A DNA stretch of 64,000 nucleotides from a bacterium (GCA_037127795.1 JBAXXQ010000001.1:252274-316273); one strand, 5' to 3'. Positions 1,368 to 59,394 are shown, counted from the first letter of the stretch. Numbers and translations: made by a program. Notes: generated by a model from the letters alone, not told the origin.

Positions 1368-1400
1368 GATGTAATACTTATTAGGGAAAAGTCTATATAT

Positions 1401-1431
1401 TGACATAAATATGTATATATGCTATCATATA
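1401..1431 (+). promoter_or_regulatory. Sigma70-like promoter with extended -10 (TTGACA-17-TGcTATCAT)
   Basis: ttgacataaatatgtatatatgctatcatat upstream of ORF 1442/1469; shares the ATATGC-TAT motif with the 31 nt repeat promoters at 33032 and 47126. Confidence 0.4.
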
Positions 1432-4570: not shown

Positions 4571-4599
4571 TTGACTTTATTTGTATATATGATACAATA
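4571..4599 (+). promoter_or_regulatory. Sigma70-like promoter (TTGACT-16-TACAAT)
   Basis: ttgactttatttgtatatatgatacaat upstream of the 4618 ORF. Confidence 0.35.
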
Positions 4600-7944: not shown

Positions 7945-7983
7945 CATAGAGTATACTGTATGTATCTCTATGCTTTTATTTTT
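7945..7983 (+). terminator. Hairpin terminator after hpf (overlaps the start codon of the next gene)
   Basis: aagcatagag...ctctatgctt hairpin followed by ttattttttg. Confidence 0.35.
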
Positions 7984-10900: not shown

Positions 10901-11044
10901 TGTATCAATAGTACTTGTATCAATGAAGATCAACTCAAACAAATGTTGAACAATACTACTCCGGTACAGCAATCAGTAGTAGATATTTCTATACAAGACC
11001 CTGCTATACCAGCAGTAATACCTGATACGAATTCTACCCAATAA
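7970..11044 (+). CDS. Giant secreted tail-fibre-like protein with C-terminal intramolecular chaperone / auto-processing domain (peptidase S74-like), paralog 1
   Basis: Signal peptide; Gly/Thr/Ser/Asn-rich body; C-terminal SCSSDINLKKNIV...LTPVQYNWK...HTGFIAQQVEQIFPDLV matches the endosialidase/tail-fibre chaperone motif (S-D-x-x-L-K-x-N-I ... GhIAQ-V); conserved CxxxxC-DQLKxML tail. Confidence 0.7.
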   Translation: MLLFFVRHKKTFFALTFVFLFGATVSFANPPVGGYDPGTILDPDCAPGSTDCTVNINNKISAGNGVEFVGQAIQVKLDGASLYKSNTGLKISDGYIGQSSITTVGTIIAGHWHGDVIDIAHGGTGLGATPQNGEFLIGNGTGYDLVNLAGADGVVITNSGSTVTIGLGTSNIPVITSVSGTDYIPIYQTTSPDVRKKITYNDLFSGVLGSLKYQGTWDPGTNTPAIADSDCNSSAKGNFYIVGASGNRHIGSEFSWESGDWLICKGTVWEEVEKTNNIDSVFGRMGSVVAMNGDYTASQITNVPFGSISSITVQNAINELATEKEPVIVPGLANEYWRGDKTWQTLDTSNVSEHPARLYFTNARAVTALTGQNLSIFNNNVGYNSGTGAVGQIPFWNGTNTITGDTGLVWDNTDKQLVIGGGSNFAFSTPSAVTFNIGGNVDTFFQANIQNQSNGANASTDWIATSDNGNELANYVDMGINSSGYNTPSFNITGVNDAYLYSAGNDFAIGNASIGKSLKFFTGGTTTANQRLVIDGTGDVVFTPTSSSATTSSSSLSFNSTYALTAANTAVTTGTVSALVTAQGEVVGSSITNGVFNASGHKLSSAVTWPTVLTPTYFDEYDIAAGAGYSPVIQSISIDTAVTGGSNQLIGDLRYSTDGGNTFTSAGSVKNFPLTSGSYLTFSYTGLSISVPSNTTIIFRVFIYASGVVTSSRSVYMRNMQINGQIGTSTGSVKGVSIAGNYTASASNHVLSALYINGTYNAAGYTGVKNYDLYQANAAASNYFAGVVGIGNLNPTYMLDVGSSSVSGIVGRFTNATGSCTISPTTTSLSCSSDINLKKNIVVLADNTLFTLSTITTAPTATTLDKIMSLTPVQYNWKTEQDTDPKHTGFIAQQVEQIFPDLVLTDPETNLKSVNYMGFAPYLVQAVQEINVTIKNLSSLDTGNINSLGSLIKQFLADSKNNIEDLYAKNIHSSNQICINSTCINEDQLKQMLNNTTPVQQSVVDISIQDPAIPAVIPDTNSTQ

Positions 11045-11049
11045 AACCT

Positions 11050-11274
11050 TTTGTTTTGTAGTCTTTACATAGTATACTTATAGCGTATATGCGCCACTTT
11101 TTTATCACACACAAGAAAACATTCTTCGCAATGTTATTTGTGATACTTTTTAGTACTACTATCTCTTTTGCTGACCGTGCAAACCCCTACACTGCAGGAG
11201 AAACTCTTGATCCAGACTGTGCGCCAGGAAGTGGGGTGAATTGTACGGTACATATTGCTGGTGGAGGAGGAACT
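11050..11274 (+). repeat. Copy A of a ~225 bp identical cassette (promoter + 5' end of gene)
   Basis: Sequence from tttgttttgtagtctttacatag... to ...gctggtggaggaggaact is identical to 14127-14354 except for a 3 nt GGA indel. Confidence 0.85.
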
Positions 11275-14121
11275 CAGACATTGCAAGATGTAACAACTGC
11301 AGGGAATTCTATAACTAATGATATTGGGAATCTTGCTGATAATACATGGAGGATAAATAGTAATGGTGTTGCAAGATTTGGACATCCTATAACTGGTACT
11401 GGAGTAGAGATAGACCCGGATGGAACTATACAATCAGTTGGTGGTAGTTATTCTACGTTTTTTACCGTGTATCCAGGTGGAGGGCAAATTTTAATGGGAG
11501 ATTTTGATGAAACTAGTGGTAAAACAAAATATTTATTAGATGATGTAGCACAAACCCAAACCTTCAATGCTAATAATGGGTTCTTATTTACAGGTGTTAA
11601 TTATCCAGGAGGGTTTGCAAGTATCAACCCAGATACTAATGAAATATTGTTAGGAGAATTCAACACATCAAATGATAATACACATATAGATATATTAAAT
11701 AATTCAGGACATACAGGTAATTATATAAGAACATATTCAAATCATGGGGAATTTAATAATTTAGGTGAAGGGATTAATTTAGATTTTGAACACAACCTAT
11801 TTCAATTAGGTGTATACAGTCAAGAAGGTCTTCAAACCTATATCTCTTTAGATGACAATGCTCAGACTCAATCTTTTAATGCTAGTAATGGGTTTAATTT
11901 TACAGGAAATAATTTTTCTTATGCAAATAGTGGTGGAGAGTATTTAATTAATGCAAACTTTAATAATCGAACTATTGTAATAGGAGATAATCAGCGTATT
12001 GCTGGTAATGGTAATAATTTAACTATTGATGATAATAACAATCTTATTACTTTAGGTAATATATCTTTAAGTGCTTCAATTGAATTAAACACATGGTCAG
12101 GTATAAATACATATTATGCTTATAGGGGGCATAATTTTACAGGAGGTGGTACATTGTCTACTGATGGTGATATAAGTGTAGGAAATAATATTGGAAACAC
12201 TGTTACAGGAGGATGGAGTATAGATAATGCAGGCGCAGCTCATTTTGCAGCAGGGAGCTTCAGTGTAGAAGGTAATGGTAATATTAATAGTGATGGTCAA
12301 TTAAGCCTTGCGGGTGGTAATGCCGGAATATTTAGTGATGGAAGTTTTAGTACTTATAATAACTCACTTGCTGCTAAAACAATAAGTTACAATGGGCATT
12401 TGTTACAAGTAACAGATAGTGTTTATGGTGGTAATTTTTTTAATGTAACAGAGGATGGTACTTTATCAATATCTCAATCTTCAAGTGGCAACAACACATT
12501 ATACATAAATGGTAGTGGTCAGTTCTATATAGCAGATAAGCAGAATGGTTACCAAACATTTAATGTGGGGTATGATTATTCTTATTTTCAAGATAAATAT
12601 TATGGTACTGGTATAGATGCTCAATATGCAAGATTTGAAAAAGATAATATATTCTTTCAAGATGTAACTGGTACACAGAAATATTTTACAGCTGATACTT
12701 TTGGTATACAAACAACTGATCCGATATCTGGAGTTAATGTGTTAGGTCCTAAATGGCTGTTAGGAAGATATAATACTAGTACTCAATCTTTAAATGTTTC
12801 TGTTGATGGTACACAATATAATATTCCTACGCAAACAATTTCGGTAAATGTATCAAATAATTCCGTATACTCTAGTTTATTAGGAAGTTCTAATTTGGCA
12901 TATTCTAATGTTTTAGGAAATAACGCAGGTCTTGGGGCAAGTGGTACATATAATAATTTTTTAGGACCACTTAGTGGCTTTGGAACAAGTGCCTCTTATT
13001 CAAATTTTATTGGAAACGGTGCTGGAGGGTTTGCGACAAATGCATCTCACTCCAACTTTATCGGAGATGGAGCTGGAGCCTTCTCATCATCTTCATCATA
13101 TTCTACCTTTATAGGTTTTCATGCTGGTGCTGATAGTATTTTTAATCCTTTAAATGGACAAAACAATATTATTATTGGTACAAATATAACTCTTCCTCCG
13201 AGTACAAGTAATGCTATTAATATAGGCGGTGTTTTGTTCGGTCTTAATACTCAAAATGATTATAGTGCCAATACTGCTTATTTTACCGCTGTTACCTCTG
13301 GCAAAATAGGTATTGCTAATGCTAATCCGTATTATACCCTCGACGTAGGTAATTCGTCGGTATCAGGAATAGTAGCTCAGTTCACCAACTCATCAGGTAG
13401 TTGTACTATCTCCCCAACAGGTTCAGCAGTTTCTTGTTCTTCCGACATCAACCTCAAGAAAAATATTGTTGCACTCAAGGATAATACACTCTTCACTCTC
13501 AACACTATCACTACAGCACCAACAGCTACCACACTAGACAAACTCATGACACTTACTCCAGTAAGTTACAACTGGAAAACAGAAAACGATACTGATAATA
13601 AACACACTGGATTCATCGCACAACAAGTAGAACAAGTATTCCCAGATCTAGTAACTACAGATCCAACCACTAATCTCAAATCTCTCAACTATATGGGCTT
13701 TGCACCGTATATAGTACAAGCAATACAAGAAATGAATTTCAAGATGACTGCAATCATTCCTGATGATCTTGATGCGACTGCGTATGCAAAAATAAAAAGT
13801 TTCTTGCATCAAGTTGCAACTGATGGAGAAATTACTTTCAATACTTTGAAAACAACACTTATCACTAGTGATGAAATTCGTGCAAATAAAACAACAACCA
13901 ACCAGCTCTGTGTCGGCACCACTTGTATCGATAGTGATCAGCTTGCAAAAATGCTCCAGTCTGCAAATTCACAAAATACAGCGCCAGGTACTCTTGTAGC
14001 AACTCCAGATACTACACAAACTCCAGCAACACCAGACCCTATACTAGCTCCTACTCCTGACCCAGCCCCAAGTACACCTGCTGTCACCGACACTACGACA
14101 CCTACTGTTTCTACACAATAA
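11089..14121 (+). CDS. Giant secreted tail-fibre-like protein with C-terminal S74-like intramolecular chaperone domain, paralog 2
   Basis: Same architecture; first 62 codons and 44 nt upstream identical to paralog 3; Gly/Ala/Asn repeat block; SSDINLKKNIVAL...YNWK...HTGFIAQQVEQVFPDLV; Pro/Thr-rich C-tail. Confidence 0.7.
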   Translation: MRHFFITHKKTFFAMLFVILFSTTISFADRANPYTAGETLDPDCAPGSGVNCTVHIAGGGGTQTLQDVTTAGNSITNDIGNLADNTWRINSNGVARFGHPITGTGVEIDPDGTIQSVGGSYSTFFTVYPGGGQILMGDFDETSGKTKYLLDDVAQTQTFNANNGFLFTGVNYPGGFASINPDTNEILLGEFNTSNDNTHIDILNNSGHTGNYIRTYSNHGEFNNLGEGINLDFEHNLFQLGVYSQEGLQTYISLDDNAQTQSFNASNGFNFTGNNFSYANSGGEYLINANFNNRTIVIGDNQRIAGNGNNLTIDDNNNLITLGNISLSASIELNTWSGINTYYAYRGHNFTGGGTLSTDGDISVGNNIGNTVTGGWSIDNAGAAHFAAGSFSVEGNGNINSDGQLSLAGGNAGIFSDGSFSTYNNSLAAKTISYNGHLLQVTDSVYGGNFFNVTEDGTLSISQSSSGNNTLYINGSGQFYIADKQNGYQTFNVGYDYSYFQDKYYGTGIDAQYARFEKDNIFFQDVTGTQKYFTADTFGIQTTDPISGVNVLGPKWLLGRYNTSTQSLNVSVDGTQYNIPTQTISVNVSNNSVYSSLLGSSNLAYSNVLGNNAGLGASGTYNNFLGPLSGFGTSASYSNFIGNGAGGFATNASHSNFIGDGAGAFSSSSSYSTFIGFHAGADSIFNPLNGQNNIIIGTNITLPPSTSNAINIGGVLFGLNTQNDYSANTAYFTAVTSGKIGIANANPYYTLDVGNSSVSGIVAQFTNSSGSCTISPTGSAVSCSSDINLKKNIVALKDNTLFTLNTITTAPTATTLDKLMTLTPVSYNWKTENDTDNKHTGFIAQQVEQVFPDLVTTDPTTNLKSLNYMGFAPYIVQAIQEMNFKMTAIIPDDLDATAYAKIKSFLHQVATDGEITFNTLKTTLITSDEIRANKTTTNQLCVGTTCIDSDQLAKMLQSANSQNTAPGTLVATPDTTQTPATPDPILAPTPDPAPSTPAVTDTTTPTVSTQ

Positions 14122-14126
14122 AATTG

Positions 14127-14354
14127 TTTGTTTTGTAGTCTTTACATAGTATACTTATAGCGTATATGCGCCACTTTTTTATCACACACAAGAAAACATT
14201 CTTCGCAATGTTATTTGTGATACTTTTTAGTACTACTATCTCTTTTGCTGACCGTGCAAACCCCTACACTGCAGGAGAAACTCTTGATCCAGACTGTGCG
14301 CCAGGAAGTGGGGTGAATTGTACGGTACATATTGCTGGTGGAGGAGGAGGAACT
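14127..14354 (+). repeat. Copy B of the ~225 bp identical cassette
   Basis: Direct comparison with 11050-11274. Confidence 0.85.
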
Positions 14355-17300
14355 AATGGGTGGGATAGTATGTTGGCGCAAAATCAAGTACAGACGCAGG
14401 ATAGAACTATTGATGTTAATAATAAATATTTACGATTTAGTAATATAAATGAAGTTGATTTTTCTGGGGTCTCTGGTCAAAACACTATTGAAATTGTGGA
14501 AGGGCAGGTAAATATGGGAGATATTGGTGGGGTTGGAAATGGTGTTTATTTTTCAGTTGATAGTCCTAATAATAAAATTTATTCATTGGCTGGAGGAAAT
14601 CCAGCTGGATTGAATCTTGATTTTAATAATCAAATATATGAATTGGGTGATTATGGTCACAATAATGATGCTACAACATTATCAGTAGATAATACTCATG
14701 ATATTATTTCTACTTATAGTGGTTCAAATAATTATAAAAATTCAGGTATTTATTTAGATTATGGAAATGCTGATTTTTATTATGGTGATTATGGTCACAA
14801 TCAAAATGGTACAGCAATTTTACTTGATGATCTAGCTCAAACCCAAACCTTCAATGCTAATAATGGGTTTACGTTTAATACTGACAATGGAGGATTTATT
14901 GTATCAGGTAGCAACAGTTACCATTATCAAGATGGGTTATTAGGGGCAATAATATCAGGTAGAATAGCATTTATAGGGGATAATTCTGGCGACTTTAATA
15001 GTACTAGTTTATTGGTTAATGACAATACTGGACAACAATTTATTGATTTTAATGCGCAAAACGGTTTCCAATTCACAGGAGGTTCTATAAGTAGTGATGG
15101 TAATATCTTACTAACAAACGGGGGTACTATATCTGCAAATGCAAATGATTTACAACTAATAAATAATGGTAATTCAAACTATATAAATGTAGGCGCAGGT
15201 GGTAATATAGAGGCACATTCAACAACTGGTGGGACGATAGCATTACAAGATGATTTAAATGGTGCAAAAATATTAATTAACAATTATGCGGGTGATATTG
15301 AATTAACATCTACTTTAGGAGCACCAATAAAAATGTTTGGAGGTAGTGTTCAAACTGATGGTGATATAGAAGGTGGTGGCAAGATAACCACACCTAATTC
15401 AACATTATTTTCAGATGGTTCTGTAGGACTTCCTCATGCTGCTATTAATGTAGACGGGGGTGGTTATTTATCTAATGGTAATTTTAGTTGGGATGCAGGT
15501 GGAAATATAACTACTTATGGTGATTTAAGTTTAATGGGGGGTAATGCGGGGATATTTTCAAATGGACATATATTTTCGGGGGTAGATGGGTTTAATAATT
15601 TTGATGCAACGCAATCTGGTTCACTTACAATTGCTTCAATTAGTGATGGAACAGCAACATTATTTACTGGTGGCGATGGAGATTTTTACATAGCAGATAA
15701 AACAAGTGGTAACCAAACATTCTATGTAGATGTAGCTGGAATGCAAACAACCGATGCAGTAGCGGGGGCGGGAACACTAAGCCCTGCGTGGAAGCTTGGA
15801 AGTTATAATAGCACTTCTGAATCTGTCGCTGTGTCTATTGGGGGTACACTATACAATCTCTCTACGCATGGTGTCGCACTCGATAGTAACAATAGCTTTA
15901 TTGTCGGAGGGGCTGGATCTTTTGGTGCAAATATAAATTCTGTATATGTAGGATTTGCAGCTGGGACTGGTGCAAATGATGCAAACAATTCAAACTTCCT
16001 TGGTGCAAATGCAGGGCTCAATGCGCAATTTGCAAACCATTCAAATTTCTTTGGTGCAGATGCTGGTAATGGTGCAATCAATGCAAGTGTCTCAAACTTC
16101 ATTGGGTACCAGGCGGGGTATGGGGCTGTGAATGCTACGGGCTCAAACTTCTTGGGGCAAGATGCCGGTCATGGTGCAACATATGCAACCAATTCAAACT
16201 TCTTTGGATTCCAGGCTGGATATGGTGCGCTCGGTAGTAATAGCTCTCCATTTAATAGTAACTTCTTTGGGTATCAAGCAGGGTATGGTGATTACAATCT
16301 CACCGACTCAAACTTCTTTGGATACCAAGCAGGATATATTGCAAATACTGCTATAAGTTCAAACTTCTTTGGAAATAGCGCAGGGTATGGAGCAACTAAT
16401 GCTGCGTATGCAAACTTTATGGGGTTTTATGCTGGGTATGGAGCTGGTAATGCAAACGGCTCAAACTTCTTTGGACGCAATGCAGGAGATTCTGCAAGTA
16501 ATGCATCATATTCAAACTTTATTGGATTTGCAGCAGGTAAGTATGCAACAAATGCTCAAATTTCAAACTTTATTGGAATCGGCGCAGGTCTTGATGCAAC
16601 AAATGCAAGTGAGTCAAATTTCTTTGGAGATAATACTGGGCGTGGTGCAACCAATGCTTCAAATGCAATATTTATAGGTGCAAGTGCTGGGTATAATGAT
16701 GCTGTAAATAATGTTTCAACTGGAGGGTTTTCAATTCTTATAGGGCCACATACAAATACTGGTGGCTATTCAAACAGTATTGCAATAGGTGGCTCTGCTA
16801 CCAATACCGCAACAAATCAATTTATGATCGGCTCAACTTCATTCCCAATCAATACTACTGTCATCAAAGGTGCAAGTACACAATGTACTATCACCACAGG
16901 TACAGGTATTGCATGTTCGTCTGATGCAAGTCTCAAGAAAAATATTGTAGCCGTACAAGATGGTACGCTTGCAAAAGTACTTGCACTCCGCCCGGTAACA
17001 TACAACTGGAATGATGAACAAGATACTGATCCGACACATATAGGATTCATTGCGCAAGAAGTAGAAACAGTATTCCCACAAGTAGTATCTATAGACCCTG
17101 CAACACATCTCAGACTGCTCTCTACGACCTCACTTATTCCTTATACTATCAAAGCTATACAAGAGATGCATATTACTATTACGTCTGTAATTCCAGATAC
17201 TCTTGATAGTACTGCGTATGGCAAAATAAAAGAATTTTTGCGAGAAATTGCTACAGAAGGGAAGGCTGTAGTAGATATTGTACAAACACATACACTCTGT

Positions 17301-17528
17301 GTAGACGATGTGTGTGTCACCCGTGATCAGTTCAAAAACATGGTCCAGCAAGCAGGTCAGCAACAAAGTGCTCCGAGTGTTGTTGTGCCTGTAGCACCTA
17401 GTACAACACCAGTAACCACTCCAACACCAGTTTCATCAGACGCTACTGTAGTAGACCCAGTTGTTACCCCAACACCAAGTCCTGTGGTAGATACTACTCC
17501 TGCTCCTGCATCTTCTGAAAATCAGTAA
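14166..17528 (+). CDS. Giant secreted tail-fibre-like protein with long SNFxG-xAG-GA-NA repeat array and C-terminal S74-like chaperone domain, paralog 3
   Basis: Identical N-terminus to paralog 2; ~17 tandem 14-16 aa Gly/Ala/Asn repeats; CSSDASLKKNIVAV...YNWN...HIGFIAQEVETVFPQV; Pro/Thr/Val-rich tail. Confidence 0.7.
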   Translation: MRHFFITHKKTFFAMLFVILFSTTISFADRANPYTAGETLDPDCAPGSGVNCTVHIAGGGGGTNGWDSMLAQNQVQTQDRTIDVNNKYLRFSNINEVDFSGVSGQNTIEIVEGQVNMGDIGGVGNGVYFSVDSPNNKIYSLAGGNPAGLNLDFNNQIYELGDYGHNNDATTLSVDNTHDIISTYSGSNNYKNSGIYLDYGNADFYYGDYGHNQNGTAILLDDLAQTQTFNANNGFTFNTDNGGFIVSGSNSYHYQDGLLGAIISGRIAFIGDNSGDFNSTSLLVNDNTGQQFIDFNAQNGFQFTGGSISSDGNILLTNGGTISANANDLQLINNGNSNYINVGAGGNIEAHSTTGGTIALQDDLNGAKILINNYAGDIELTSTLGAPIKMFGGSVQTDGDIEGGGKITTPNSTLFSDGSVGLPHAAINVDGGGYLSNGNFSWDAGGNITTYGDLSLMGGNAGIFSNGHIFSGVDGFNNFDATQSGSLTIASISDGTATLFTGGDGDFYIADKTSGNQTFYVDVAGMQTTDAVAGAGTLSPAWKLGSYNSTSESVAVSIGGTLYNLSTHGVALDSNNSFIVGGAGSFGANINSVYVGFAAGTGANDANNSNFLGANAGLNAQFANHSNFFGADAGNGAINASVSNFIGYQAGYGAVNATGSNFLGQDAGHGATYATNSNFFGFQAGYGALGSNSSPFNSNFFGYQAGYGDYNLTDSNFFGYQAGYIANTAISSNFFGNSAGYGATNAAYANFMGFYAGYGAGNANGSNFFGRNAGDSASNASYSNFIGFAAGKYATNAQISNFIGIGAGLDATNASESNFFGDNTGRGATNASNAIFIGASAGYNDAVNNVSTGGFSILIGPHTNTGGYSNSIAIGGSATNTATNQFMIGSTSFPINTTVIKGASTQCTITTGTGIACSSDASLKKNIVAVQDGTLAKVLALRPVTYNWNDEQDTDPTHIGFIAQEVETVFPQVVSIDPATHLRLLSTTSLIPYTIKAIQEMHITITSVIPDTLDSTAYGKIKEFLREIATEGKAVVDIVQTHTLCVDDVCVTRDQFKNMVQQAGQQQSAPSVVVPVAPSTTPVTTPTPVSSDATVVDPVVTPTPSPVVDTTPAPASSENQ

Positions 17529-27164: not shown

Positions 27165-28466
27165 ATGACAAGTTTTAAAAACATTTTACTTGGACTCTTT
27201 ATTGTACTTTTTGTCGGCGCTATTTTGGTATTTTCTGGGGTGATAAATATTGGTGGGACGACACAACAAAAAGTGCAAACAAATTTATCCCTTTGGGGAC
27301 CGTTTCCTTCAATTGCTATGCAGGGTATTATTACTGATTTTAATAATATTGATACGTATACACAAATTAGTTATACCCAAGTCTTACCAAATGATTTGCA
27401 TAGGCAGCTCGTCGAAGCTATCGCTTCAGGGAAAGGACCTGATATGGTCATTTTTTCAAACGAAAATTTCTTACAAGATATTGATAAGTTATATGTAACA
27501 CCTTTTGCTACATATCCTGAGAGAACATTTCGTGATACGTATATAGATGGAGCTAGTACGTTTTTAAATAATGATGGTGTTGTTTTGTATCCGCTCGTTG
27601 TTGATCCTTTGGTTGTGTATTACAACAAAGATCTTCTTGCTGCTGCAAAATATATCTATCCTCCTCGTACATGGTCTGGGCTCAATCAAAGCGTGCCACT
27701 ATTTTTGAAAAAAGATAAAACAGGTATTACGCAAAGTGCTATTGCATTGGGTGAATCTCCTAATATGGAGCATTTCAAGAAAATATTTTCTACTCTGTTA
27801 TTACAATCAGGGGTTCCTGTTGTTTCTTATAATACTGATGCAAAGAGGTATTTAGTAAAACTTAATACTGAGCGATCTGACCCAAATAAAGCGACACCAC
27901 AAGAACAAGCATTTTTGTACTATCAATCATTTGCTGATCCGACAAGTCAGCTCTACAGTTGGAATAAAAAACTTCCAGAAGCACAAGACGCGTTTCTTTC
28001 TGGAAAGAGTGCCTTTTATCTTGCTCCCGCTAGTGAATTGTTTGAAATTCAAACAAAAAATCCAAATCTTAATTTTGATACGACGGCAATGTTTCAACCA
28101 GACAATGCGGTAAGACCTATTACATACGGTACTATTTATGGTGTAGGTATTCTCAAAAATAGTTCAAATCTTGCTGTTGCGTACAATGTACTCGGTTCTC
28201 TTTTGGGAAAAGATATTGTCGATACTATATCAAAACAGGTATCACTTCCTCCGGCACGTCGTGACCTTTTACAGGTACAACCAGCAAATCCATATGCTGC
28301 AGTATTTTTTAATCAAGCACTACAAACATTTACATGGCCTGATCCTGATAAAAATGGTACTGATACTGCCTTTCGTGATATGATAAGACAAGCAGCTTCA
28401 GGGGAAAGAGATATTAATCAAGCATTATATGAAACACAAAATCAAATTCAATCTTATATTCAGTAG
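27165..28466 (+). CDS. Extracellular solute-binding protein (ABC family 1, MalE-like), membrane-anchored, orphan
   Basis: N-terminal TM anchor; PLVVDPLVVYYNKDLL...PPRTWSGL matches the SBP family-1 signature; no adjacent permease or ATPase. Confidence 0.5.
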   Translation: MTSFKNILLGLFIVLFVGAILVFSGVINIGGTTQQKVQTNLSLWGPFPSIAMQGIITDFNNIDTYTQISYTQVLPNDLHRQLVEAIASGKGPDMVIFSNENFLQDIDKLYVTPFATYPERTFRDTYIDGASTFLNNDGVVLYPLVVDPLVVYYNKDLLAAAKYIYPPRTWSGLNQSVPLFLKKDKTGITQSAIALGESPNMEHFKKIFSTLLLQSGVPVVSYNTDAKRYLVKLNTERSDPNKATPQEQAFLYYQSFADPTSQLYSWNKKLPEAQDAFLSGKSAFYLAPASELFEIQTKNPNLNFDTTAMFQPDNAVRPITYGTIYGVGILKNSSNLAVAYNVLGSLLGKDIVDTISKQVSLPPARRDLLQVQPANPYAAVFFNQALQTFTWPDPDKNGTDTAFRDMIRQAASGERDINQALYETQNQIQSYIQ

Positions 28467-28824
28467 TTTATTTTTATTCATAACAGCTATACCAGCTTTT
28501 GCAAAAGGTCCAGCAGGAAGTGTTATAGGTATTCCTTGTGATGGAGTAAATTGTAACATTGAGGATATTTTTACCTTGATTAATAATCTCATAAAATTTG
28601 CTATTACAAAATTATTTTTCCCAATTTTTATTGTAGCTATTTTGTACATTGGATGGAGTTATCTTACCGCTGGTGGAGATACCAAGAAGGTTGCTAATGT
28701 AAAACAAATGGCTTGGCATATGTTTTTAGGGGTAATCCTTGTTCTTGCATCATGGCTTATTGTTAAAACAGTACTCGATGTACTAGGGGCAACAGATGCG
28801 GGGATGTTTTTGACAGGTAATTAA
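28429..28824 (+). CDS. VirB2/TrbC-like pilin-type protein 1 (signal peptide + two-helix hairpin)
   Basis: Sec signal (AIPAFA/KG), then two long hydrophobic helices separated by a TAGGDTKK loop; overlaps the SBP gene by 38 nt. Confidence 0.5.
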   Translation: MKHKIKFNLIFSSLFLFITAIPAFAKGPAGSVIGIPCDGVNCNIEDIFTLINNLIKFAITKLFFPIFIVAILYIGWSYLTAGGDTKKVANVKQMAWHMFLGVILVLASWLIVKTVLDVLGATDAGMFLTGN

Positions 28825-28840
28825 TGTATACTTATATTAT

Positions 28841-29323
28841 ATGCAATATAAAAATCTTAAAAAAATATTCGCTGTAGGTATATTTTTGGGAATAATGTTT
28901 TTTTCAAATTTGTTAGTATTTGCTCAAGGTAACCCTGGTGCAAATAGTACTGGGACACCAACAAATAATCCTGGTGCAAATGCTACAGCAAATCAAACAA
29001 CTCCATCTGCTACGGCAAATAATACTGTTATTCCGCCAGGAGATACAAAGATAAGTTATAGTATTAATAACCCGCTTGGAGTTACTAGTATTGATGAGGT
29101 TATACAAAAAATAATGGCTGTTATAGTTAAACTCGCAGTTCCTGTAATTATCTGCCTCTTTTTATATACAGGATTTATGTTTATTACAGCACAGGGAGAT
29201 ACCACAAAATTAAAAACAGCAAAAACTATGCTTTGGCAAGTAATTGTAGGAACTATTATTATCCTTGGTGCATGGGCTATAGCAGCTGCTATTGTTACAA
29301 CAGTAAGCTTAATAACAGGATAA
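28841..29323 (+). CDS. VirB2/TrbC-like pilin-type protein 2 with Asn/Thr/Pro-rich spacer
   Basis: Signal (LLVFA/QG); low-complexity NPGANSTGTPTNNPGANATANQTT linker; helix-AQGDTTK-helix C-terminal hairpin. Confidence 0.5.
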   Translation: MQYKNLKKIFAVGIFLGIMFFSNLLVFAQGNPGANSTGTPTNNPGANATANQTTPSATANNTVIPPGDTKISYSINNPLGVTSIDEVIQKIMAVIVKLAVPVIICLFLYTGFMFITAQGDTTKLKTAKTMLWQVIVGTIIILGAWAIAAAIVTTVSLITG

Positions 29324-29324
29324 T

Positions 29325-30476
29325 ATGAAAAGATTTTTATTCTCACTCATACTAATAGTAAGTATATCAATCCCGGCATTTGCCTTTGCTGGAGAGATAA
29401 CAGCACAAAGTCAGTGTAAAAATTTATCTAGCATTTCAACAAGTGCTCAATATACTATTTGCTGTACGAGTACTTTTAAGGCCGCTATTTGTAGTAGTCT
29501 TACCACAAGTCAACAATGCACTTTAGGAGTACTTCCTGCGGATCAATGTCAGAATCAGTGTGATTCTATAAAATCAAAAAATGACTATGATGTATGTTGT
29601 AATCTTTCTGATCATCCTATTTGTAAGTCACTTTCAGTACCAGAACAATGTGCATACGGAGCGCCTATTAATCCATCGCTCTGTGTGTCTACGCAACAGC
29701 AAGTGACCCAGAATCAACCTCAAACATACACTCCTGGTGCGACTTATACATCAGGGCAATGTGATGCATTTTCTAGTATTGATTCTTTGGATAAGTACAA
29801 TAGTTGTTGTGTTGATTTAAAAACAAATACTCCTCATTCTCCTCAACCTACAAGTTGTCTTACAATGACAAAAAATCAACAATGTGCTCTGGGGGTACTT
29901 CCTGCTGATCAGTGCCAGAATCAATGTAGTTCTATTACCTCTAGGGATGATTATACGACTTGTTGTGCAGGTGCTGTTGTTGCCAACTCATGTGTTGCAT
30001 TATCACAAGCAGATATATGTTTGTTCAAAACTTTTAATTCTACTATTGAGGCAACAAATGCGGGCTGTCCGGATGCAAATATTGCCGGGTTTGTTTCTCC
30101 TGGTTCTGGGGTTGGGGGAAGTCTTTTAGGGGGTGATCCTTTGGGAACATATAGTAAAAATGTTGTCGTAGAAACAACCTGTTCAAAAGTAAATCTTTCA
30201 AAAGTTGACTTGAAAAGTTTTTGGAGTTTCTTTTTGTGGGTTCGATGTTTTATAGGAAGTCTATTTCCATTATTGATGACAATTGCGTTCCTTGTCTTTA
30301 TGTGGAATATTGTCAACTACATAATTAAACCTAATGCATTAAAGAATAATGAGCGCCGTACATATATAATCGCGGGATTAATAGGGTTATTTGTTATTGT
30401 TGGTATGTGGGGCTTGGTTGCATTCACAACATCAACCCTTGGAATAGGAAGTGTTATACCACAGCTGCCATTGTAG
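29325..30476 (+). CDS. Cys-rich secreted modular protein with C-terminal VirB2-like two-helix membrane hairpin
   Basis: Signal (AFAFA/GE); two ~110 aa tandem Cys-rich modules (QQC.LGVLPADQCQNQC.SI.S..DY..CC repeated); C-terminal FFLWVRCFIG...AFTTSTLGIG hairpin. Confidence 0.5.
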   Translation: MKRFLFSLILIVSISIPAFAFAGEITAQSQCKNLSSISTSAQYTICCTSTFKAAICSSLTTSQQCTLGVLPADQCQNQCDSIKSKNDYDVCCNLSDHPICKSLSVPEQCAYGAPINPSLCVSTQQQVTQNQPQTYTPGATYTSGQCDAFSSIDSLDKYNSCCVDLKTNTPHSPQPTSCLTMTKNQQCALGVLPADQCQNQCSSITSRDDYTTCCAGAVVANSCVALSQADICLFKTFNSTIEATNAGCPDANIAGFVSPGSGVGGSLLGGDPLGTYSKNVVVETTCSKVNLSKVDLKSFWSFFLWVRCFIGSLFPLLMTIAFLVFMWNIVNYIIKPNALKNNERRTYIIAGLIGLFVIVGMWGLVAFTTSTLGIGSVIPQLPL

Positions 30477-30545
30477 ATTTGATATATAGGTGTGGTATAC
30501 TATAAGGGTACTAAATAATTAAAAGATAGTAATTAATTGTAATTT

Positions 30546-30926
30546 ATGAAAAAATTTTTGATAGCATTAAGTGCAGTACTTGTTCCTGCAAGTTTGTACG
30601 CACAATCACCAAGTCATTTGAATAATCTTATAGATGAAATTTTTAACCTTGCAAATAAGGCTGTTGCGTTTTTGATGATATTGGCAACATTGTATTTTAT
30701 CTGGGTTATTATAAAACTTATTACACAAACAGATTCTGCAAAAAGAAAAGAAAACAAAGAGCAAGTAAAATGGGCAGTTATTGGTCTTGCTATTATGGTC
30801 TGTGTATGGGGTCTTATCCGTTTTGCTGCTGATACTCTTGGTATTAGTACAACTAATGGAAACCAAAATAATATTGCAATCCCTTGTCCACCAGGTACAA
30901 ACCCTGTTGGAGGTGGTTGTCGTTAA
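30546..30926 (+). CDS. VirB2/TrbC-like pilin-type protein 4
   Basis: Signal (SLYA/QS); two hydrophobic helices separated by a TQTDSAKRKENKEQ loop; Gly/Cys C-tail. Confidence 0.5.
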   Translation: MKKFLIALSAVLVPASLYAQSPSHLNNLIDEIFNLANKAVAFLMILATLYFIWVIIKLITQTDSAKRKENKEQVKWAVIGLAIMVCVWGLIRFAADTLGISTTNGNQNNIAIPCPPGTNPVGGGCR

Positions 30927-30940
30927 GCTACTACAATACT

Positions 30941-31315
30941 ATGTTGTCTGAATTTATTGCATTTGCACAGGTATCACACGATCAGACATTAGAAGGTGTT
31001 TTATCTCGTATTAATTATTATATTATCAATCCCGCAATTATGTTGCTTTTTACGATAGCGACAGTGGTATTTATTTGGGGGATTATAAAATATATTAGAA
31101 ATGCTGCAGATCCAAAAAAGCGTAAAGAAGGACAAGATCATATGTTGTGGGGGATTATAGGATTTACTATTATGGTAGGAGTATACGGGATTATTACTAT
31201 AATTACTCAATTTTTTGGGTTCTCAAATGTAACTGTAACTCCAACAAAAATAAAAGTAACTCCTCAAAATATCCCATCGGTAAAAATTAAATCTTTTAAT
31301 TTACCTACTAAATAA
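30941..31315 (+). CDS. VirB2/TrbC-like pilin-type protein 5
   Basis: Start chosen at ATG 30941 (track ORF 30884 overlaps the previous gene); two helices around RNAADPKKRKEGQD. Confidence 0.45.
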   Translation: MLSEFIAFAQVSHDQTLEGVLSRINYYIINPAIMLLFTIATVVFIWGIIKYIRNAADPKKRKEGQDHMLWGIIGFTIMVGVYGIITIITQFFGFSNVTVTPTKIKVTPQNIPSVKIKSFNLPTK

Positions 31316-31388: not shown

Positions 31389-31997
31389 TTACTTTGGATC
31401 TGATATTTCTACGTGTAATTTTTTTACAGGAGTAATTGTGTGTATAACAATAACGCACAATCTCGGAAAGGTTGTATTTGTTTGTTCGATAGTTGTATTG
31501 TTTTTTACACGATAGTAAAAAAGTTTTTTTGCATCTCGTGCAAAAACTTCAAACTCACCTGATTCAGAAATTGTTTCAAATCGCTTCATGTCTGGAGCGG
31601 TAAACTTAATCGTTTCATCAGATTTCAAATCCATTTCTTTTCCAAAAGTAACTCTCGGTGTACACATTTCTTTGAAAGTGTATTTAATCTTTTCTGGCCA
31701 TACAAAATCAGGTGGATTCCACGAAATTAGTATGATACAGAATAAAATTATTCCAATGAGCCACCAAATCCAGGAAGGAAATGAACTTGGTTTTTTAAAG
31801 TTTTTTACTAAAAAGTAAATACCAGTAAAAAACCCAACAATGCCCACCATATATAACATCCAAACCCCCATGAATAACCAGAAAATCAGGATAATGATTG
31901 CGAATATCAATAAAGCAGCAAGTGTGTAAAATAAAAATAATTTTTTACTACTCTTGTGGGCTTTACGAGTCCCGTATTGATTACTACTGTTGTCCAT
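31389..31997 (-). CDS. Membrane protein with C-terminal beta-rich domain (possible NfeD-like partner of the upstream SPFH-like protein)
   Basis: Two or three TM helices then a soluble C-terminal domain; start taken at MDNSS (31997) to limit overlap. Confidence 0.4.
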   Translation of the reverse strand: MDNSSNQYGTRKAHKSSKKLFLFYTLAALLIFAIIILIFWLFMGVWMLYMVGIVGFFTGIYFLVKNFKKPSSFPSWIWWLIGIILFCIILISWNPPDFVWPEKIKYTFKEMCTPRVTFGKEMDLKSDETIKFTAPDMKRFETISESGEFEVFARDAKKLFYYRVKNNTTIEQTNTTFPRLCVIVIHTITPVKKLHVEISDPK

Positions 31998-32988
31998 TAT
32001 TACCTCCTCTTTTTTTTGTACCAGTTTCTTCATCATCTTTTCCAAGTAGAATCGATTCTAGTGTTGATAGAGTACCACCTCCTTGATTAAAATACTTAAG
32101 TCCTTGCGGAAGGCCTTTGTTCGATGCTTCTGCTACTTTTGCAAGATTTTCAGATGTTTTGTTAATAAAATCTGCATGAGCTTTATATTTTTTCTCAATA
32201 AATTTCATGTTTACCTCATTCATTGCATCTTGTCCTTTGGCTTTAAGTTCTTCTGTTTTAAGGATGTGTTCTTGTGCTTTAGTATTGTTTTCTTCTATAC
32301 CAATATTTTCTTCTGCATTTAAAAAATCTTGCGATTCTTCAGCTACAAAGATATATGGTATAGCAGGGAAGCCTAAAATTTTGAATTGATTAGAGGTAAA
32401 AAAGTCAGAATTATTAAGCTTGGTGATATCTTTATCTATCTCACTTAATATATCTGTACCTGCTACTTGTCTAATTTCTTTAAACTTTTTTTTGCTTGCC
32501 CACTCACGAACAACACTAATCACTTGGTTATGGATCTGCCCCAATGGATCTTCGAGACCTTTTGCTTTTATTGGGTTTCCTATCTCTACTGAGATTTGAA
32601 GTACCAATTCCAGACTTGCTGCATCTTCAGATATTACTTCCGCAACATCAAGATGTGATTCATTTTTCATAATATCTACCCATTCCTCTCTTGTCCCAAT
32701 TACTAATTTAGATTTTAAGAATTGTCTTAGGTTGATATATTTTTTTCTCTCCACACCATTTATGGTGATCATTTCAGTTGCCGCAGATTCTACATCTGCA
32801 ACTTCTTCTTTCCAGCGAAGTTTAACCTTGCTTGTTCCATAAGGCCAAACAATAAGAGGGAAATTGGCATCGGTAATACCGCTAGGGTCGCTTGGGTCAT
32901 TTATGATCCAGTCAACGTCTTTGCCAAATTTTGTCATGATGGTATATACTCCAGTCTTTTCTGGTACCAATTGGATAAATTTTGTCAT
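31984..32988 (-). CDS. SPFH/band-7 (flotillin)-like protein, TM-less (tentative)
   Basis: N-terminal beta-rich region (LIVWPYGTSKVKLRWKEE...ITINGVERKKYINLRQ) then a long Lys/Glu/Ala coiled-coil tail, as in flotillin-like proteins. Confidence 0.35.
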   Translation of the reverse strand: MTKFIQLVPEKTGVYTIMTKFGKDVDWIINDPSDPSGITDANFPLIVWPYGTSKVKLRWKEEVADVESAATEMITINGVERKKYINLRQFLKSKLVIGTREEWVDIMKNESHLDVAEVISEDAASLELVLQISVEIGNPIKAKGLEDPLGQIHNQVISVVREWASKKKFKEIRQVAGTDILSEIDKDITKLNNSDFFTSNQFKILGFPAIPYIFVAEESQDFLNAEENIGIEENNTKAQEHILKTEELKAKGQDAMNEVNMKFIEKKYKAHADFINKTSENLAKVAEASNKGLPQGLKYFNQGGGTLSTLESILLGKDDEETGTKKRGGNNGQQ

Positions 32989-33031
32989 ACTAGTAATGTT
33001 TATTTTGTTTTTAATGTATTTGTATATATAA

Positions 33032-33062
33032 TAGCATATTTATATATAAAAGTCAAGTATCT
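33032..33062 (-). promoter_or_regulatory. Copy 1 of a 31 nt repeated promoter module (minus strand TTGACT-17-TGcTATTAT) driving gene 31984-32988
   Basis: tagcatatttatatataaaagtcaagtatct identical to 47126-47156; ~44 nt upstream of the minus-strand start codon. Confidence 0.55.
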
Positions 33063-42148: not shown

Positions 42149-42231
42149 GCGTCGGTGGTAGAGTGGTCAATTACAACAGACTGTAAATCTGTCGCCTTCG
42201 GGCTACGAAGGTTCAAATCCTTCCCGGCGCA
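42149..42231 (+). tRNA. tRNA-Tyr (anticodon GTA), long variable arm
   Basis: GCGTCGGTGGTAGAGTGGTCAATTACAACAGACTGTAAATCTGTCGCCTTCGGGCTACGAAGGTTCAAATCCTTCCCGGCGCA; G-U pair in acceptor stem. Confidence 0.8.
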
Positions 42232-42243
42232 CAAAATACAAAA

Positions 42244-42270
42244 ACACCAGAATACTCTGGTGTTTTTGTA
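42244..42270 (+). terminator. Rho-independent terminator after tRNA-Tyr
   Basis: acaccag-aatactc-tggtgt followed by TTTTT. Confidence 0.55.
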
Positions 42271-42346
42271 TTTTGTGCCTATTATATAAAATTAGAATTT
42301 ATATAATACTATTGACATGTTTTAAAAAAGAAATTATTATATATTT

Positions 42347-46696: not shown

Positions 46697-47083
46697 TTAT
46701 CCAAGATTCATCCATAAGATTTCATCTTGATAAGTTATTATTTCATAATCTAGATTATCAAAACTTATAAAAAAGTTTCTTCCAGGTATTATGTTTTCAA
46801 TCCTAGGTATATCAGCATCAATTTCGCGAGCTGTTTCTATAACTGAGATTACATCATTATCCAATCTAAAATTGAATTTTTTTTCAAGCGTAAAGATAAG
46901 ATTTTCTTTGCTTTCTGGAGATAAGTTATCCCAATTTGCTAATAAATTTAAAACTCGATTACAAAAAGATTCGTGTTCGTTTTGTAAAATTTTTTTCTCT
47001 AATAGCATCTTAAGACAATCTGTTCTTTTCATAAAGAAATCTAAAATTGAATAATCTCTAAGAAAAAGTACTATCTTTCTCAT
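46697..47083 (-). CDS. Hypothetical protein driven by the repeated promoter module
   Basis: ORF track; promoter repeat 43 nt upstream. Confidence 0.4.
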   Translation of the reverse strand: MRKIVLFLRDYSILDFFMKRTDCLKMLLEKKILQNEHESFCNRVLNLLANWDNLSPESKENLIFTLEKKFNFRLDNDVISVIETAREIDADIPRIENIIPGRNFFISFDNLDYEIITYQDEILWMNLG

Positions 47084-47125
47084 TTGTTTTTTATTTTTTT
47101 TGTTAAGAAATATTTAATTATATAT

Positions 47126-47156
47126 TAGCATATTTATATATAAAAGTCAAGTATCT
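47126..47156 (-). promoter_or_regulatory. Copy 2 of the 31 nt repeated promoter module (minus strand TTGACT-17-TGcTAATAT)
   Basis: Identical 31-mer to 33032-33062. Confidence 0.55.
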
Positions 47157-47203
47157 ATGATATACATCTTTATTTATGGGCTTTTTTCTGCTATTATCAT
47201 TGT

Positions 47204-57210: not shown

Positions 57211-57211
57211 A

Positions 57212-57859: not shown

Positions 57860-57866
57860 GTTTTAC

Positions 57867-58091
57867 CTAGCGCACTTCATTTGCAAGATTTGTTTCAATA
57901 TTAAATTCAGATAGTCCAACAAGGAATTCAGCTAATATTTTTTTAGTCTTATATGAAGGGTTTTTAACTCTTTCTTGCTCCAGCATTGTTTCAACTCTAA
58001 AGTCATAGGTTCGAGCATCATCCTCTGAAACAAACTTGTTTGTTGCGAGGTTAAAATCTAGACCTTCTAATAACGCATCATTATTTTCCAT
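57867..58091 (-). CDS. Small hypothetical acidic protein
   Basis: ORF track only. Confidence 0.3.
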   Translation of the reverse strand: MENNDALLEGLDFNLATNKFVSEDDARTYDFRVETMLEQERVKNPSYKTKKILAEFLVGLSEFNIETNLANEVR

Positions 58092-58124
58092 AACTATAAT
58101 TTTATGTTATAATACACTTATATT

Positions 58125-59369: not shown

Positions 59370-59394
59370 AAAAGTTTGCTATACTATATGCAAT

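What the first reader, a model, noticed from the sequence alone, without database searches (positions are those of the whole stretch)
33032..33062. Exact 31 nt repeat forming a strong extended -10 promoter for two unrelated minus-strand genes
tagcatatttatatataaaagtcaagtatct occurs at 33032-33062 and at 47126-47156. In both places it lies 43-44 nt upstream of a minus-strand start codon (the SPFH-like gene 31984-32988 and hypothetical 46697-47083). On the minus strand it reads TTGACT-tttatatataaatatgc-TA(T/A)TAT, a near-consensus -35/17/extended -10 (TGc) promoter. Identity through the entire spacer is more than promoter function requires. That suggests either a recent duplication or an operator for a shared regulator embedded in the spacer. 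A related promoter (TTGACA-...atatgcTATCAT) precedes the gene at 1442.
Basis: seen in the sequence. Interest (0 to 1): 0.5.

Follow-up and report, generated by a model that had tools for sequence, protein, structure and literature searches.

The report
Shared strong promoter before two genes
Two unrelated genes in an uncultivated ultra-small bacterium (Patescibacteria) carry the same 31-base near-consensus promoter; this is an ordinary regulatory element, mildly interesting because it belongs to a small look-alike promoter family and the same core recurs in many related bacteria.

Summary
An exact 31-mer sits at 33032-33062 and 47126-47156, with none expected by chance, and it is present in three independent assemblies. 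On the minus strand it reads AGATAC-TTGACT-17 nt-TA(T/A)TAT with a TATGC (TRTG-type) extended -10. The -10 lies 39 and 38 nt before the start codons of two unrelated lineage-restricted genes: a divergent SPFH-fold protein and a 128-aa orphan.

Similarity covers only the polymerase-binding core (about 38 nt with 1 mismatch); the flanks are at background. It is not a doublet. The same genome holds at least five related promoters in about 73 kb, one of them 1 mismatch from the core. Four have 38-41 nt unstructured, Shine-Dalgarno-less leaders. Most housekeeping genes here instead use leaderless TGnTATACT promoters.

The exact 25-nt core also recurs, with unrelated flanks and diverse downstream genes, in at least 11 other Patescibacteria genomes and two Clostridia-type MAGs. 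One cross-class pair shares 35 nt, longer than the within-window pair.

I found no support for a dedicated operator: there are no extra palindrome sites, variants break the symmetry, and there is no regulon theme.

Best reading: strong sigma-70/sigA promoter cores reused within the genome (putative-mobile-promoter-like), on a lineage-preferred consensus. Transcription itself is untested. Novelty is low to moderate.

The parts
33032..33062 (-). Copy 1 of the exact 31-mer (minus strand: AGATAC TTGACT TTTATATATAAATATGC TA)
47126..47156 (-). Copy 2 of the exact 31-mer
33028..33056 (-). Core promoter c1: -35 TTGACT 33056-33051; 17-nt spacer 33050-33034, holding the 12-bp palindrome TTTATATATAAA and the TATGC (-16/TRTG) motif; -10 TATTAT 33033-33028
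47122..47150 (-). Core promoter c2: -35 TTGACT 47150-47145; identical spacer 47144-47128; -10 TAATAT 47127-47122. A second overlapping match, TTTATA-16-TATAAT, spans 47144-47117.
32989..33021 (-). Predicted 33-nt leader of c1 (TSS inferred at about 33021, the A after ATATAC). A-rich, no Shine-Dalgarno sequence, unstructured (MFE 0 kcal/mol).
   Evidence: the TSS is inferred, not measured
47084..47115 (-). Predicted 32-nt leader of c2. A-rich, no Shine-Dalgarno sequence, unstructured.
   Evidence: the TSS is inferred
31984..32988 (-). Gene driven by c1: 334-aa divergent SPFH-fold protein. Only 17 distant homologue clusters among 1.84e9 representatives; no Pfam hit for this sequence.
31389..31997 (-). 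Second gene of the c1 operon (overlaps the first by 14 nt): 202-aa membrane protein with a weak, sub-threshold NfeD_membrane hit
46697..47083 (-). Gene driven by c2: 128-aa orphan (only its own >=99% identity cluster among 5.8e9 proteins; no Pfam hit)
1400..1428 (+). Family member c3: TTGACA TAAATATGTATATATGC TATCAT. It shares ATATGCTAT.ATATATACAAATA.ATT (25 of 27) with c1. The -10 lies 40 nt before ATG 1469 of a 182-aa membrane protein.
4571..4598 (+). Looser relative: TTGACT-16-TACAAT, whose spacer holds the reverse complement of the 13-mer ATATATACAAATA (4578-4590)
47189..47203 (+). Divergent partner promoter of gltX: TGC TATTAT (47192-47197), then 6 nt, then ATG 47204 (leaderless). This arrangement is conserved in relatives; the minus-strand promoter is not.

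Best explanation
The two 31-mers are the RNA-polymerase-binding cores of two strong housekeeping-type (sigma-70/sigA) promoters. Each has a lineage-typical extension upstream of the -35 (AGATAC), a -35 TTGACT, a 17-bp A/T-only spacer ending in the Gram-positive-type -16 motif TATGC (TG-extended -10), and a -10 TATTAT or TAATAT. Transcription should start about 7 nt downstream (at about 33021 and about 47115, minus strand). That gives 32-33-nt A-rich, unstructured leaders without a Shine-Dalgarno sequence for a divergent SPFH/membrane-protein operon and for a 128-aa orphan gene. The two cores belong to a family of at least 5 related promoter modules in about 73 kb of this Patescibacteria (Paceibacteria-like) genome. 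This family forms a 'full promoter plus about 40-nt leader' class, in front of lineage-restricted genes, and it contrasts with the leaderless TGnTATACT promoters of many housekeeping genes. The identity between copies most likely reflects re-use (copying or short-patch conversion) of a promoter core within the genome, on top of a strongly constrained lineage-wide consensus. It is a 'putative mobile promoter'-type situation rather than a dedicated operator. What is shown: the sequence anatomy, position, family membership, non-homology of the downstream genes, and recurrence in other genomes. What is inferred: transcription initiation, promoter strength, and copying as the origin of the identity.
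For: Anatomy: 10/12 and 9/12 matches to the consensus, a 17-nt spacer and TG. TATGC at spacer positions 13-17 is the norm in 40 non-ascertained Patescibacteria promoter-like sites. Position: the -10 lies 38-41 nt before the ATG in c1, c2, c3 and c5, and the leaders do not fold. Similarity is confined to the core, from -6 to +38. Family: c3 shares the region from about -17 to about +17 with c1, including a 13-mer present 3 times against 0.01 expected. c5, on the same-genome contig L391, is 1 mismatch from the 25-mer core and carries AGGTAC upstream. Downstream proteins are unrelated and lineage-restricted. The pair nominally meets the PMP criteria of Matus-Garcia et al. 2012 (>=50 nt, >=80% identity, non-homologous CDS). 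Identity at the 18 unconstrained positions is not chance (2e-8 to 2.5e-4). Two other genomes also carry two exact copies (L010/L011 and L031/L032), far more often than independent rare convergence would predict. At the gltX locus the three relatives examined lack this promoter, although the gltX promoter itself is conserved. In other genomes an ORF or a tRNA gene follows the 25-mer pattern on the same strand in 24 of 29 loci.
Against: There are no transcript data, so initiation and strength are inferred. Copying is not proven. A Saccharibacteria copy (L020) matches c1 over 35 nt, longer than c1 matches c2. In the other two-copy genomes the identity starts exactly at TTGAC and ends in the -10. 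Both points fit selection on a functional core (convergence, or an unknown spacer-reading factor) as well as, or better than, random duplication end-points. No mechanism that would copy only about 35 nt is evident. All available strains are at least 99.77% identical, so there is no polymorphism to date the event. Only about 73 kb of the genome could be examined.
Confidence: 0.6

Rival explanations
1. Pure convergence on a lineage-wide optimal promoter. In Patescibacteria the best promoter is specified almost base by base (AGRTAC-TTGACT-TTT..AAATATGC-TAT.AT). Independent strong promoters therefore drift to the same sequence without any copying.
For: The exact 25-mer occurs at 17 sites in other genomes, with unrelated flanks (median extension 0 nt left, 1 nt right). 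14 of these are Patescibacteria-type sites in at least 11 genomes, 2 are in Clostridia-type MAGs, and 1 is an IMG/VR viral contig. One cross-class pair is identical over 35 nt. The scaffold TTGACTTTT-N6-AAATATGCTA is a very common strong-promoter form, with more than 120 sites in each of the viral and metagenome scans. AGRTAC upstream of the -35 recurs in the window's c1, c2 and c5, in L006 and L013, and with another spacer in L016, but in <=1% of unbiased promoter samples. Identity boundaries coincide with the functional core in three genomes.
Against: The central ATATAT is not preferred in general: 0 of 121 in metagenomes, and 1 exact copy against more than 120 scaffold sites in viral contigs. 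Spacer positions 1-12 of other Patescibacteria promoters show no such consensus, and none of 40 is within 4 mismatches. The window's other TTGAC promoters have unrelated spacers. Several genomes carry two or more exact copies, which independent convergence at the observed rarity does not predict.
Confidence: 0.2
2. Operator embedded in the spacer. The perfect 12-bp palindrome TTTATATATAAA between the -35 and the -10 is bound by a (possibly phylum-wide) dimeric regulator that co-regulates the downstream genes.
For: A perfect palindrome sits in a classical repressor position. The whole spacer is identical in c1 and c2 and in many other genomes. Copy number per genome is low, as expected for a small regulon.
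Against: The palindrome occurs nowhere else in the window or in 230 kb of Patescibacteria loci outside the ascertained promoter context. The sibling c5 (TTTTTATATAAA) and other variants (TTAATATATAAA, TTTATATGTAAA, c3) break the symmetry without compensating changes. Downstream genes are functionally diverse and unrelated: a sigma factor, ribosomal protein S6, small membrane proteins, SPFH and an orphan. No regulator is encoded next to either copy; the only transcription factor found among the window proteins scanned is a MarR beside its own efflux operon. The same core in Clostridia would require a regulator shared across phyla.
Confidence: 0.12
3. Not a promoter at all: a generic dispersed repeat or MITE, recombination (att) sites flanking a 14-kb island, or an assembly artefact.
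For: The two copies are direct repeats 14,094 nt apart. The k=31 Logan contigs start inside the repeat.
Against: Independent assemblies span both copies. There are only 2 copies in 64 kb, both correctly placed before genes. There are no terminal inverted repeats and no Rfam match. The interval between the copies holds infB, rbfA, clpB, a cysteine-desulfurase-like gene and five tRNAs, partly syntenic in relatives L013 and L016, and no integrase.
Confidence: 0.03

Closest known systems
Putative mobile promoters / promoter reuse (Matus-Garcia et al. 2012, NAR, PMC3488235; Nijveen et al. 2012, PMC3575422)
   Same: Highly similar upstream sequence in front of non-homologous CDSs within one genome. 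It nominally meets the 50-nt / 80% identity rule (63 nt at 81%). It is a small family, and some PMP families are likewise shared across distant genera.
   Different: The real identity is only a core of about 38 nt, and the rest is near background. PMP doublets average 66 nt at 92% identity. No mobilising element (IS or MITE) is present. Convergence is a serious alternative here.
Extended -10 / '-16 region' (TRTG) sigA promoters of Gram-positive bacteria (established knowledge, e.g. Voskuil and Chambliss 1998; recalled, not re-read here)
   Same: TATG-C immediately upstream of a TAnnAT hexamer, a 17-bp spacer and a TTGAC -35.
   Different: The organism is a Patescibacterium. The family also shares an upstream AGRTAC and an A/T-only spacer, neither of which is part of the classical definition.
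Generic strong-promoter scaffold TTGACTTTT-N6-AAATATGCTA(TAAT), abundant in phage and metagenome contigs
   Same: Identical -35, T-tract, A-tract and TATGC-extended -10 (more than 120 sites in each scan).
   Different: In those collections the central hexamer is free (0 of 121 is ATATAT). The ATATAT centre and the AGRTAC extension are enriched in Patescibacteria.
Spacer operators of repressors that bind between the -35 and the -10
   Same: A perfect 12-bp palindrome centred in the spacer.
   Different: No second site, no cognate regulator, no conserved symmetry among variants, and no common function of the downstream genes.

Membership tests
sigma-70/sigA promoter with extended -10 | -35 hexamer close to TTGACA | tested here: met
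   TTGACT (5/6) in both copies
sigma-70/sigA promoter with extended -10 | Spacer of 17 +/- 1 bp and a -10 of the form TAnnnT | tested here: met
   17 bp; TATTAT (5/6) and TAATAT (4/6)
sigma-70/sigA promoter with extended -10 | TG at -15/-14 (TRTG -16 motif) | tested here: met
   TATGC precedes the -10 in both copies, and the scanner flags TG. The same motif is the norm in other Patescibacteria promoter-like sites.
sigma-70/sigA promoter with extended -10 | Lies upstream of a same-strand gene at a workable distance | tested here: met
   39 and 38 nt from the -10 to the ATG. In 24 of the 29 loci from other genomes an ORF or tRNA gene follows on the same strand.
sigma-70/sigA promoter with extended -10 | Transcription initiates about 7 nt downstream of the -10 | not testable with these tools
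   No transcriptome or 5'-end data are available.
Putative mobile promoter (PMP) family | At least 50 nt aligned at >=80% identity within 150 nt upstream of the start codons | tested here: inconclusive
   63 nt at 81% meets the letter of the rule. However, identity is concentrated in about 38 nt, and the remaining 32 nt are about 62% identical, close to the A/T-rich background.
Putative mobile promoter (PMP) family | Downstream CDSs are non-homologous | tested here: met
   No BLASTP hit at E<0.01 among the 334-aa, 128-aa, 182-aa and 202-aa products or the products downstream of foreign copies
Putative mobile promoter (PMP) family | Evidence of mobilisation (presence/absence at orthologous loci) | tested here: inconclusive
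   The promoter is absent from the gltX-divergent position in L277 (85% GltX identity), L278 and L279. These relatives are distant, and L277 ends 166 nt upstream of gltX. All conspecific strains are identical.
Transcription-factor operator | Dyad symmetry | tested here: met
   TTTATATATAAA is a perfect 12-bp palindrome (sequence)
Transcription-factor operator | Symmetry maintained among functional variants, and further sites in a regulon | tested here: not met
   Variants break the symmetry without compensation. There are no extra sites in the window or in 230 kb of related loci.
Transcription-factor operator | A cognate regulator binds the site | not testable with these tools
   No regulator gene is adjacent, and binding cannot be assayed.
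MITE / REP-type dispersed repeat | Many dispersed copies with terminal inverted repeats or a stable hairpin | tested here: not met
   2 exact copies and no further match with up to 3 mismatches in 64 kb. One further copy, 1 mismatch from the 25-nt core, lies 4.3 kb beyond the window on contig L391. All copies lie before genes, and there are no TIRs.
att sites of an integrated element | Direct repeats flanking mobile-element genes | tested here: not met
   The repeats are in direct orientation, but the interior holds core genes (infB, rbfA, clpB, tRNAs) and no integrase, partly syntenic in L013 and L016.

The most novel reading that the evidence does not exclude
The 31-nt unit AGRTAC-TTGACT-TTTATATATAAATATGC-TA is a discrete cis-element conserved across Patescibacteria and is not just a good promoter. 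Either a conserved factor (or a lineage-specific RNA-polymerase/sigma contact) reads its A/T-only, palindromic spacer and its upstream hexamer, or it spreads within and between genomes as a portable 'expression cassette' that switches on newly acquired or newly born genes. That would explain base-perfect identity across class-level distances, multiple copies in several genomes, and its association here with lineage-restricted genes carrying about 40-nt leaders, in a genome that is otherwise largely leaderless.
Probability: 0.15. Interest if true: 0.6.

Novelty: new member of a known kind. Interest (0 to 1): 0.3.

Why it matters
Almost nothing is known experimentally about transcription signals in Patescibacteria (CPR). 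My literature search found no promoter or TSS study for the group. If the reading is right, this window gives a concrete picture of two promoter classes in one such genome. One class is leaderless TGnTATACT promoters, used by many housekeeping genes. The other is full -35 / TRTG -10 promoters with about 40-nt Shine-Dalgarno-less leaders, used by lineage-restricted genes. The reading also nominates a ready-made strong promoter core for genetic tools in the few tractable members (for example Saccharibacteria, PMC10633639). As a biological phenomenon, promoter re-use in front of unrelated genes is already described, so the finding is mainly confirmatory. A practical point: the 31-nt direct repeats fragment k=31 assemblies.

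Tried and rejected
1. Chance. Rejected by shuffles and by a promoter-aware null.

2. Assembly artefact. Rejected, because independent assemblies span both copies.

3. Known RNA or tRNA-linked element. Rfam and ARAGORN find only five tRNAs, elsewhere in the window. Rfam on 29 foreign loci showed no common RNA downstream.

4. att sites of a 14-kb island. Rejected, because the interval holds core genes.

5. Comparative conservation through orthologues of the two downstream genes. This failed. The word-indexed search returns only their own clusters, and the conspecific strains are at least 99.77% identical.

6. An apparent 'homology break' with L277 at the 5' edge of the 31-mer. I first read this as an insertion junction. 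I now reject that reading, because the conserved stretch is simply gltX's own core promoter (about 45 nt).

7. Is the whole spacer the lineage consensus? No. Only TATGC is conserved in 40 other Patescibacteria promoter-like sites.

8. Is the ATATAT centre generic? No.

9. Is the AGRTAC extension generic? No, it occurs in <=1% of unbiased samples. It does occur with another spacer in L016.

10. Extra palindrome sites (operator test). None found.

11. A single-sequence AlphaFold model of the 334-aa protein was unusable (pLDDT 41.8). The 16-sequence alignment gave pLDDT 77.6.

12. The genome contigs and metagenome-contig scans are capped at one each. I therefore could not run a control census of other A/T-only centres in Patescibacteria, nor a full-genome count for this species.

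Full report
OBSERVATION

The 31-mer TAGCATATTTATATATAAAAGTCAAGTATCT is present exactly twice, at 33032-33062 and 47126-47156. There are no further matches with up to 3 mismatches, and none in 100 dinucleotide-preserving shuffles.

Read on the minus strand, each copy is AGATAC TTGACT TTTATATATAAATATGC TA, followed by TTAT or ATAT. That gives a -35 TTGACT, a 17-nt spacer, TG at -15/-14, and a -10 of TATTAT (33033-33028) or TAATAT (47127-47122). The start codons at 32988 and 47083 follow the -10 by 39 and 38 nt.

The repeat is real. ENA SPAdes contigs and an NCBI MAG (GCA_964516085.1) span each copy with unique flanks. The k=31 Logan contigs L001 and L003 both start inside the repeat.

Similarity between the two loci is 31 exact, 1 mismatch, then 6 exact. 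It falls to background on both sides. The '63 nt at 81%' of the repeat finder is carried by this core of about 38 nt. With the -35, TATGC and -10 taken as given, identity at the other 18 positions has a probability between 2e-8 and 2.5e-4 after correction for 66 promoter pairs. It is therefore not chance.

ORGANISM AND CONTEXT

The window is ordinary chromosomal DNA of a Patescibacterium. GltX is about 70% identical to proteins labelled Candidatus Paceibacterota or Nomurabacteria. The window holds housekeeping genes (pyk, hisS, def, fmt, gyrA, infB, rbfA, clpB, uvrA, uvrB, tRNAs) and T4SS-pilin-like genes.

Both copies lie in divergent intergenic regions.

- Copy 1 drives a 334-aa protein and an overlapping 202-aa membrane protein.
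- Copy 2 drives a 128-aa orphan.

The word-indexed search finds only their own clusters among 5.8e9 proteins. An exhaustive HMMER search finds 17 distant clusters for the 334-aa protein. Two of those clusters reach Pfam Band_7/SPFH. A model built from the alignment (pLDDT 77.6) matches HflK/C, QmcA, stomatin and prohibitin at Foldseek E of about 1e-6. The partner gene has a weak NfeD-membrane hit, which fits the usual SPFH-NfeD pairing, but this is not proven.

THE PAIR IS PART OF A FAMILY

The promoter at 1400-1428 (TTGACA TAAATATGTATATATGC TATCAT) shares ATATGCTAT.ATATATACAAATA.ATT (25 of 27) with copy 1. This includes a 13-mer that occurs three times in the window against 0.01 expected.

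A Logan contig of the same genome (L391) overlaps window 56005-64000 and extends 9.3 kb further. It holds two more members:

- AGGTAC TTGACT TTTTTATATAAATATGC TATCAT, 1 mismatch from the 25-nt core, whose -10 lies 41 nt before the ATG of a 320-aa protein with no Pfam hit.
- A looser member, TTGACA AATATAGTATAATATGC TAATAT.

Four members place the -10 38-41 nt before the ATG. The predicted leaders are A-rich, lack a Shine-Dalgarno sequence and do not fold.

This contrasts with the rest of the window. Only 6 of 53 genes have any Shine-Dalgarno-like motif. About 15 genes have a strong -10, often TGnTATACT, within 14 nt of the ATG, so their mRNAs are leaderless or nearly so. gltX itself has TGC-TATTAT, 6 nt, then ATG, and this arrangement is conserved in three relatives.

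COMPARISON WITH OTHER GENOMES

A scan of one genome per GTDB species with TTGACWTWWATATRTAWATATGCTA returned 29 loci. Going by the record titles, about 21 are Patescibacteria (12 of them Saccharibacteria) and 6 are Clostridia-type. Sixteen of these loci carry the exact 25-mer TTGACTTTTATATATAAATATGCTA, and one IMG/VR viral contig adds a seventeenth site.

Flanks are unrelated, with a median extension of 0 nt on the left and 1 nt on the right. Downstream genes are diverse: a sigma factor, ribosomal protein S6, small membrane or secreted proteins, and a tRNA.

Two other genomes carry two exact copies (L010/L011 and L031/L032). In both, identity is limited to the stretch from the -35 to the -10. 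A Saccharibacteria copy (L020) is identical to window copy 1 over 35 nt, which is longer than the 31 nt shared by the window's own pair.

Control scans separate what is generic from what is specific.

- With TTGACT and TATGCTAT fixed, phage spacers are diverse: 0 of 125 is TTTATATATAAA. They show only a T-rich start and an A-rich end.
- The scaffold TTGACTTTT-N6-AAATATGCTA is very common.
- Its centre is free: 0 of 121 is ATATAT in the metagenome sample, and the whole viral collection holds a single exact copy.
- In 40 non-ascertained Patescibacteria promoter-like sites, only the 3' TATGC of the spacer is conserved.
- The upstream AG(G/A)TAC occurs in <=1% of unbiased samples. It occurs in window copies c1, c2 and c5, in L006 and L013, and with a different spacer in L016.

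At the gltX locus, relatives keep the synteny SpoU, small minus-strand ORF, gltX. Their minus-strand promoters are TTGACA-16/17-TATAGT with unrelated spacers. The 85%-identity relative (L277) has no such promoter within 166 nt of gltX.

INTERPRETATION

That these are promoters is well supported by anatomy, position and recurrence in front of genes. It is not demonstrated, because there are no transcript data.

Why the whole spacer is identical is less clear. Three observations argue against simple chance or simple convergence:

- the promoter-aware null;
- the absence of this spacer among other promoters;
- the excess of genomes with two or more exact copies.

Three observations argue against a simple recent duplication:

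- identity stops at the edges of the functional core in three genomes;
- a foreign copy is more similar to c1 than c2 is;
- there is no evident mechanism for copying only about 35 nt.

I therefore favour re-use (copying or short-patch conversion) of a promoter core within the genome, acting on a lineage-wide, tightly specified consensus. This matches the operational definition of putative mobile promoters, though only nominally.

The operator idea rests only on the 12-bp palindrome. Against it:

- there are no other sites;
- the symmetry is broken in the 1-mismatch sibling and in other variants;
- no adjacent regulator is encoded;
- there is no functional theme among the downstream genes.

Readings as an att site, a MITE or an artefact are rejected.

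VERDICT

The element is a new member of a known kind: a sigma-70/sigA extended -10 promoter in a small reused-promoter family. It has modest interest as an early view of promoter architecture in Patescibacteria. One puzzle remains unexplained: a base-perfect 25-31-nt core shared across class-level distances.

Noticed in passing
window-wide; for example 6134, 7564, 20704(-), 24146, 26639, 39395, 42347, 47204, 59395: The genome is almost free of Shine-Dalgarno motifs (6 of 53 gene starts). About 15 genes have a strong -10, often TGnTATACT, only 0-14 nt before the ATG, which implies widespread leaderless or near-leaderless mRNAs. The leaderless gltX promoter is conserved in three relatives.
   Followed up: partly
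window 7970-17528: Three tandem paralogous giant genes (1024, 1010 and 1120 aa) carry a C-terminal Peptidase_S74 (endosialidase intramolecular chaperone) domain, which is tail-fibre-like. The third contains an array of 51-nt (17-aa) repeats at about 15968-16681. A 240-nt segment that includes the intergenic promoter is 98% identical between 11032-11271 and 14109-14348.
   Followed up: no
window 1427-1439(+), 4578-4590(-), 33017-33029(-): The 13-mer ATATATACAAATA occurs 3 times (0.01 expected). Twice it lies directly after a -10 (TSS region), and once it lies inverted inside the spacer of the promoter at 4571. TTGTATATATGA is repeated at 4584 and 4610.
   Followed up: partly
L391:5075-5153 and L391:781-809(-) (same genome, 4-9 kb beyond the window's right end): Further family members. 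AGGTAC TTGACT TTTTTATATAAATATGC TATCAT has its -10 41 nt before a 320-aa gene with no Pfam hit. TTGACA AATATAGTATAATATGC TAATAT has its -10 91 nt before a 77-aa gene.
   Followed up: yes
L010, L011, L031, and L391 (both family members): A short motif, (A/C)GTTCTT(T), recurs downstream of these promoters in different genomes. For example, GTTCTTTAAGAC is shared by L010 (Saccharibacteria) and L391(-)809. Its meaning is unknown: a leader element, or chance.
   Followed up: no
window 28429-31315 and 59395-61281: There is a cluster of small T4SS_pilin-like (PF18895) genes just downstream of the SPFH operon. Elsewhere there is a gene similar to the VirD4/TraG coupling protein (T4SS-DNA_transf). This fits the monoderm-type T4SS recently described for Patescibacteria (preprint 10.1101/2025.01.22.634366, title seen, not read).
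   Followed up: no
window 62582-63863(-): A gene for an ECF-type sigma factor (Sigma70_r2/r4_2, 175 aa) overlaps a 254-aa gene with a faint DUF5667 hit (a possible anti-sigma factor). This comes from the gene table of L391.
   Followed up: no
window 42229-42278: A perfect 23-bp inverted repeat with a 4-nt loop lies directly after, and slightly overlaps, tRNA-Tyr (42149-42232). It is probably the terminator.
   Followed up: no
L001 and L003 (Logan SRR12676973): The two 31-nt direct repeats equal the k-mer size of the Logan assemblies. Contigs L001 and L003 both start inside the repeat, a practical cause of fragmentation for this genome.
   Followed up: yes
L155-L274 and L281-L390 (metagenome and viral scans): The scaffold TTGACTTTT-N6-AAATATGCTA(TAAT) is extremely common in phage and metagenome contigs of very different G+C content (0.24-0.59). 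It is often preceded by A-rich sequence and a C at -36. It looks like a widely shared strong-promoter form.
   Followed up: partly
L277:1-120 (85% GltX relative): Upstream of gltX, in place of the window's promoter, there is an inverted repeat AAAATAACACCT...AGGTGTTATTTT (a hairpin, possibly a terminator of a neighbouring gene). The contig ends there.
   Followed up: no
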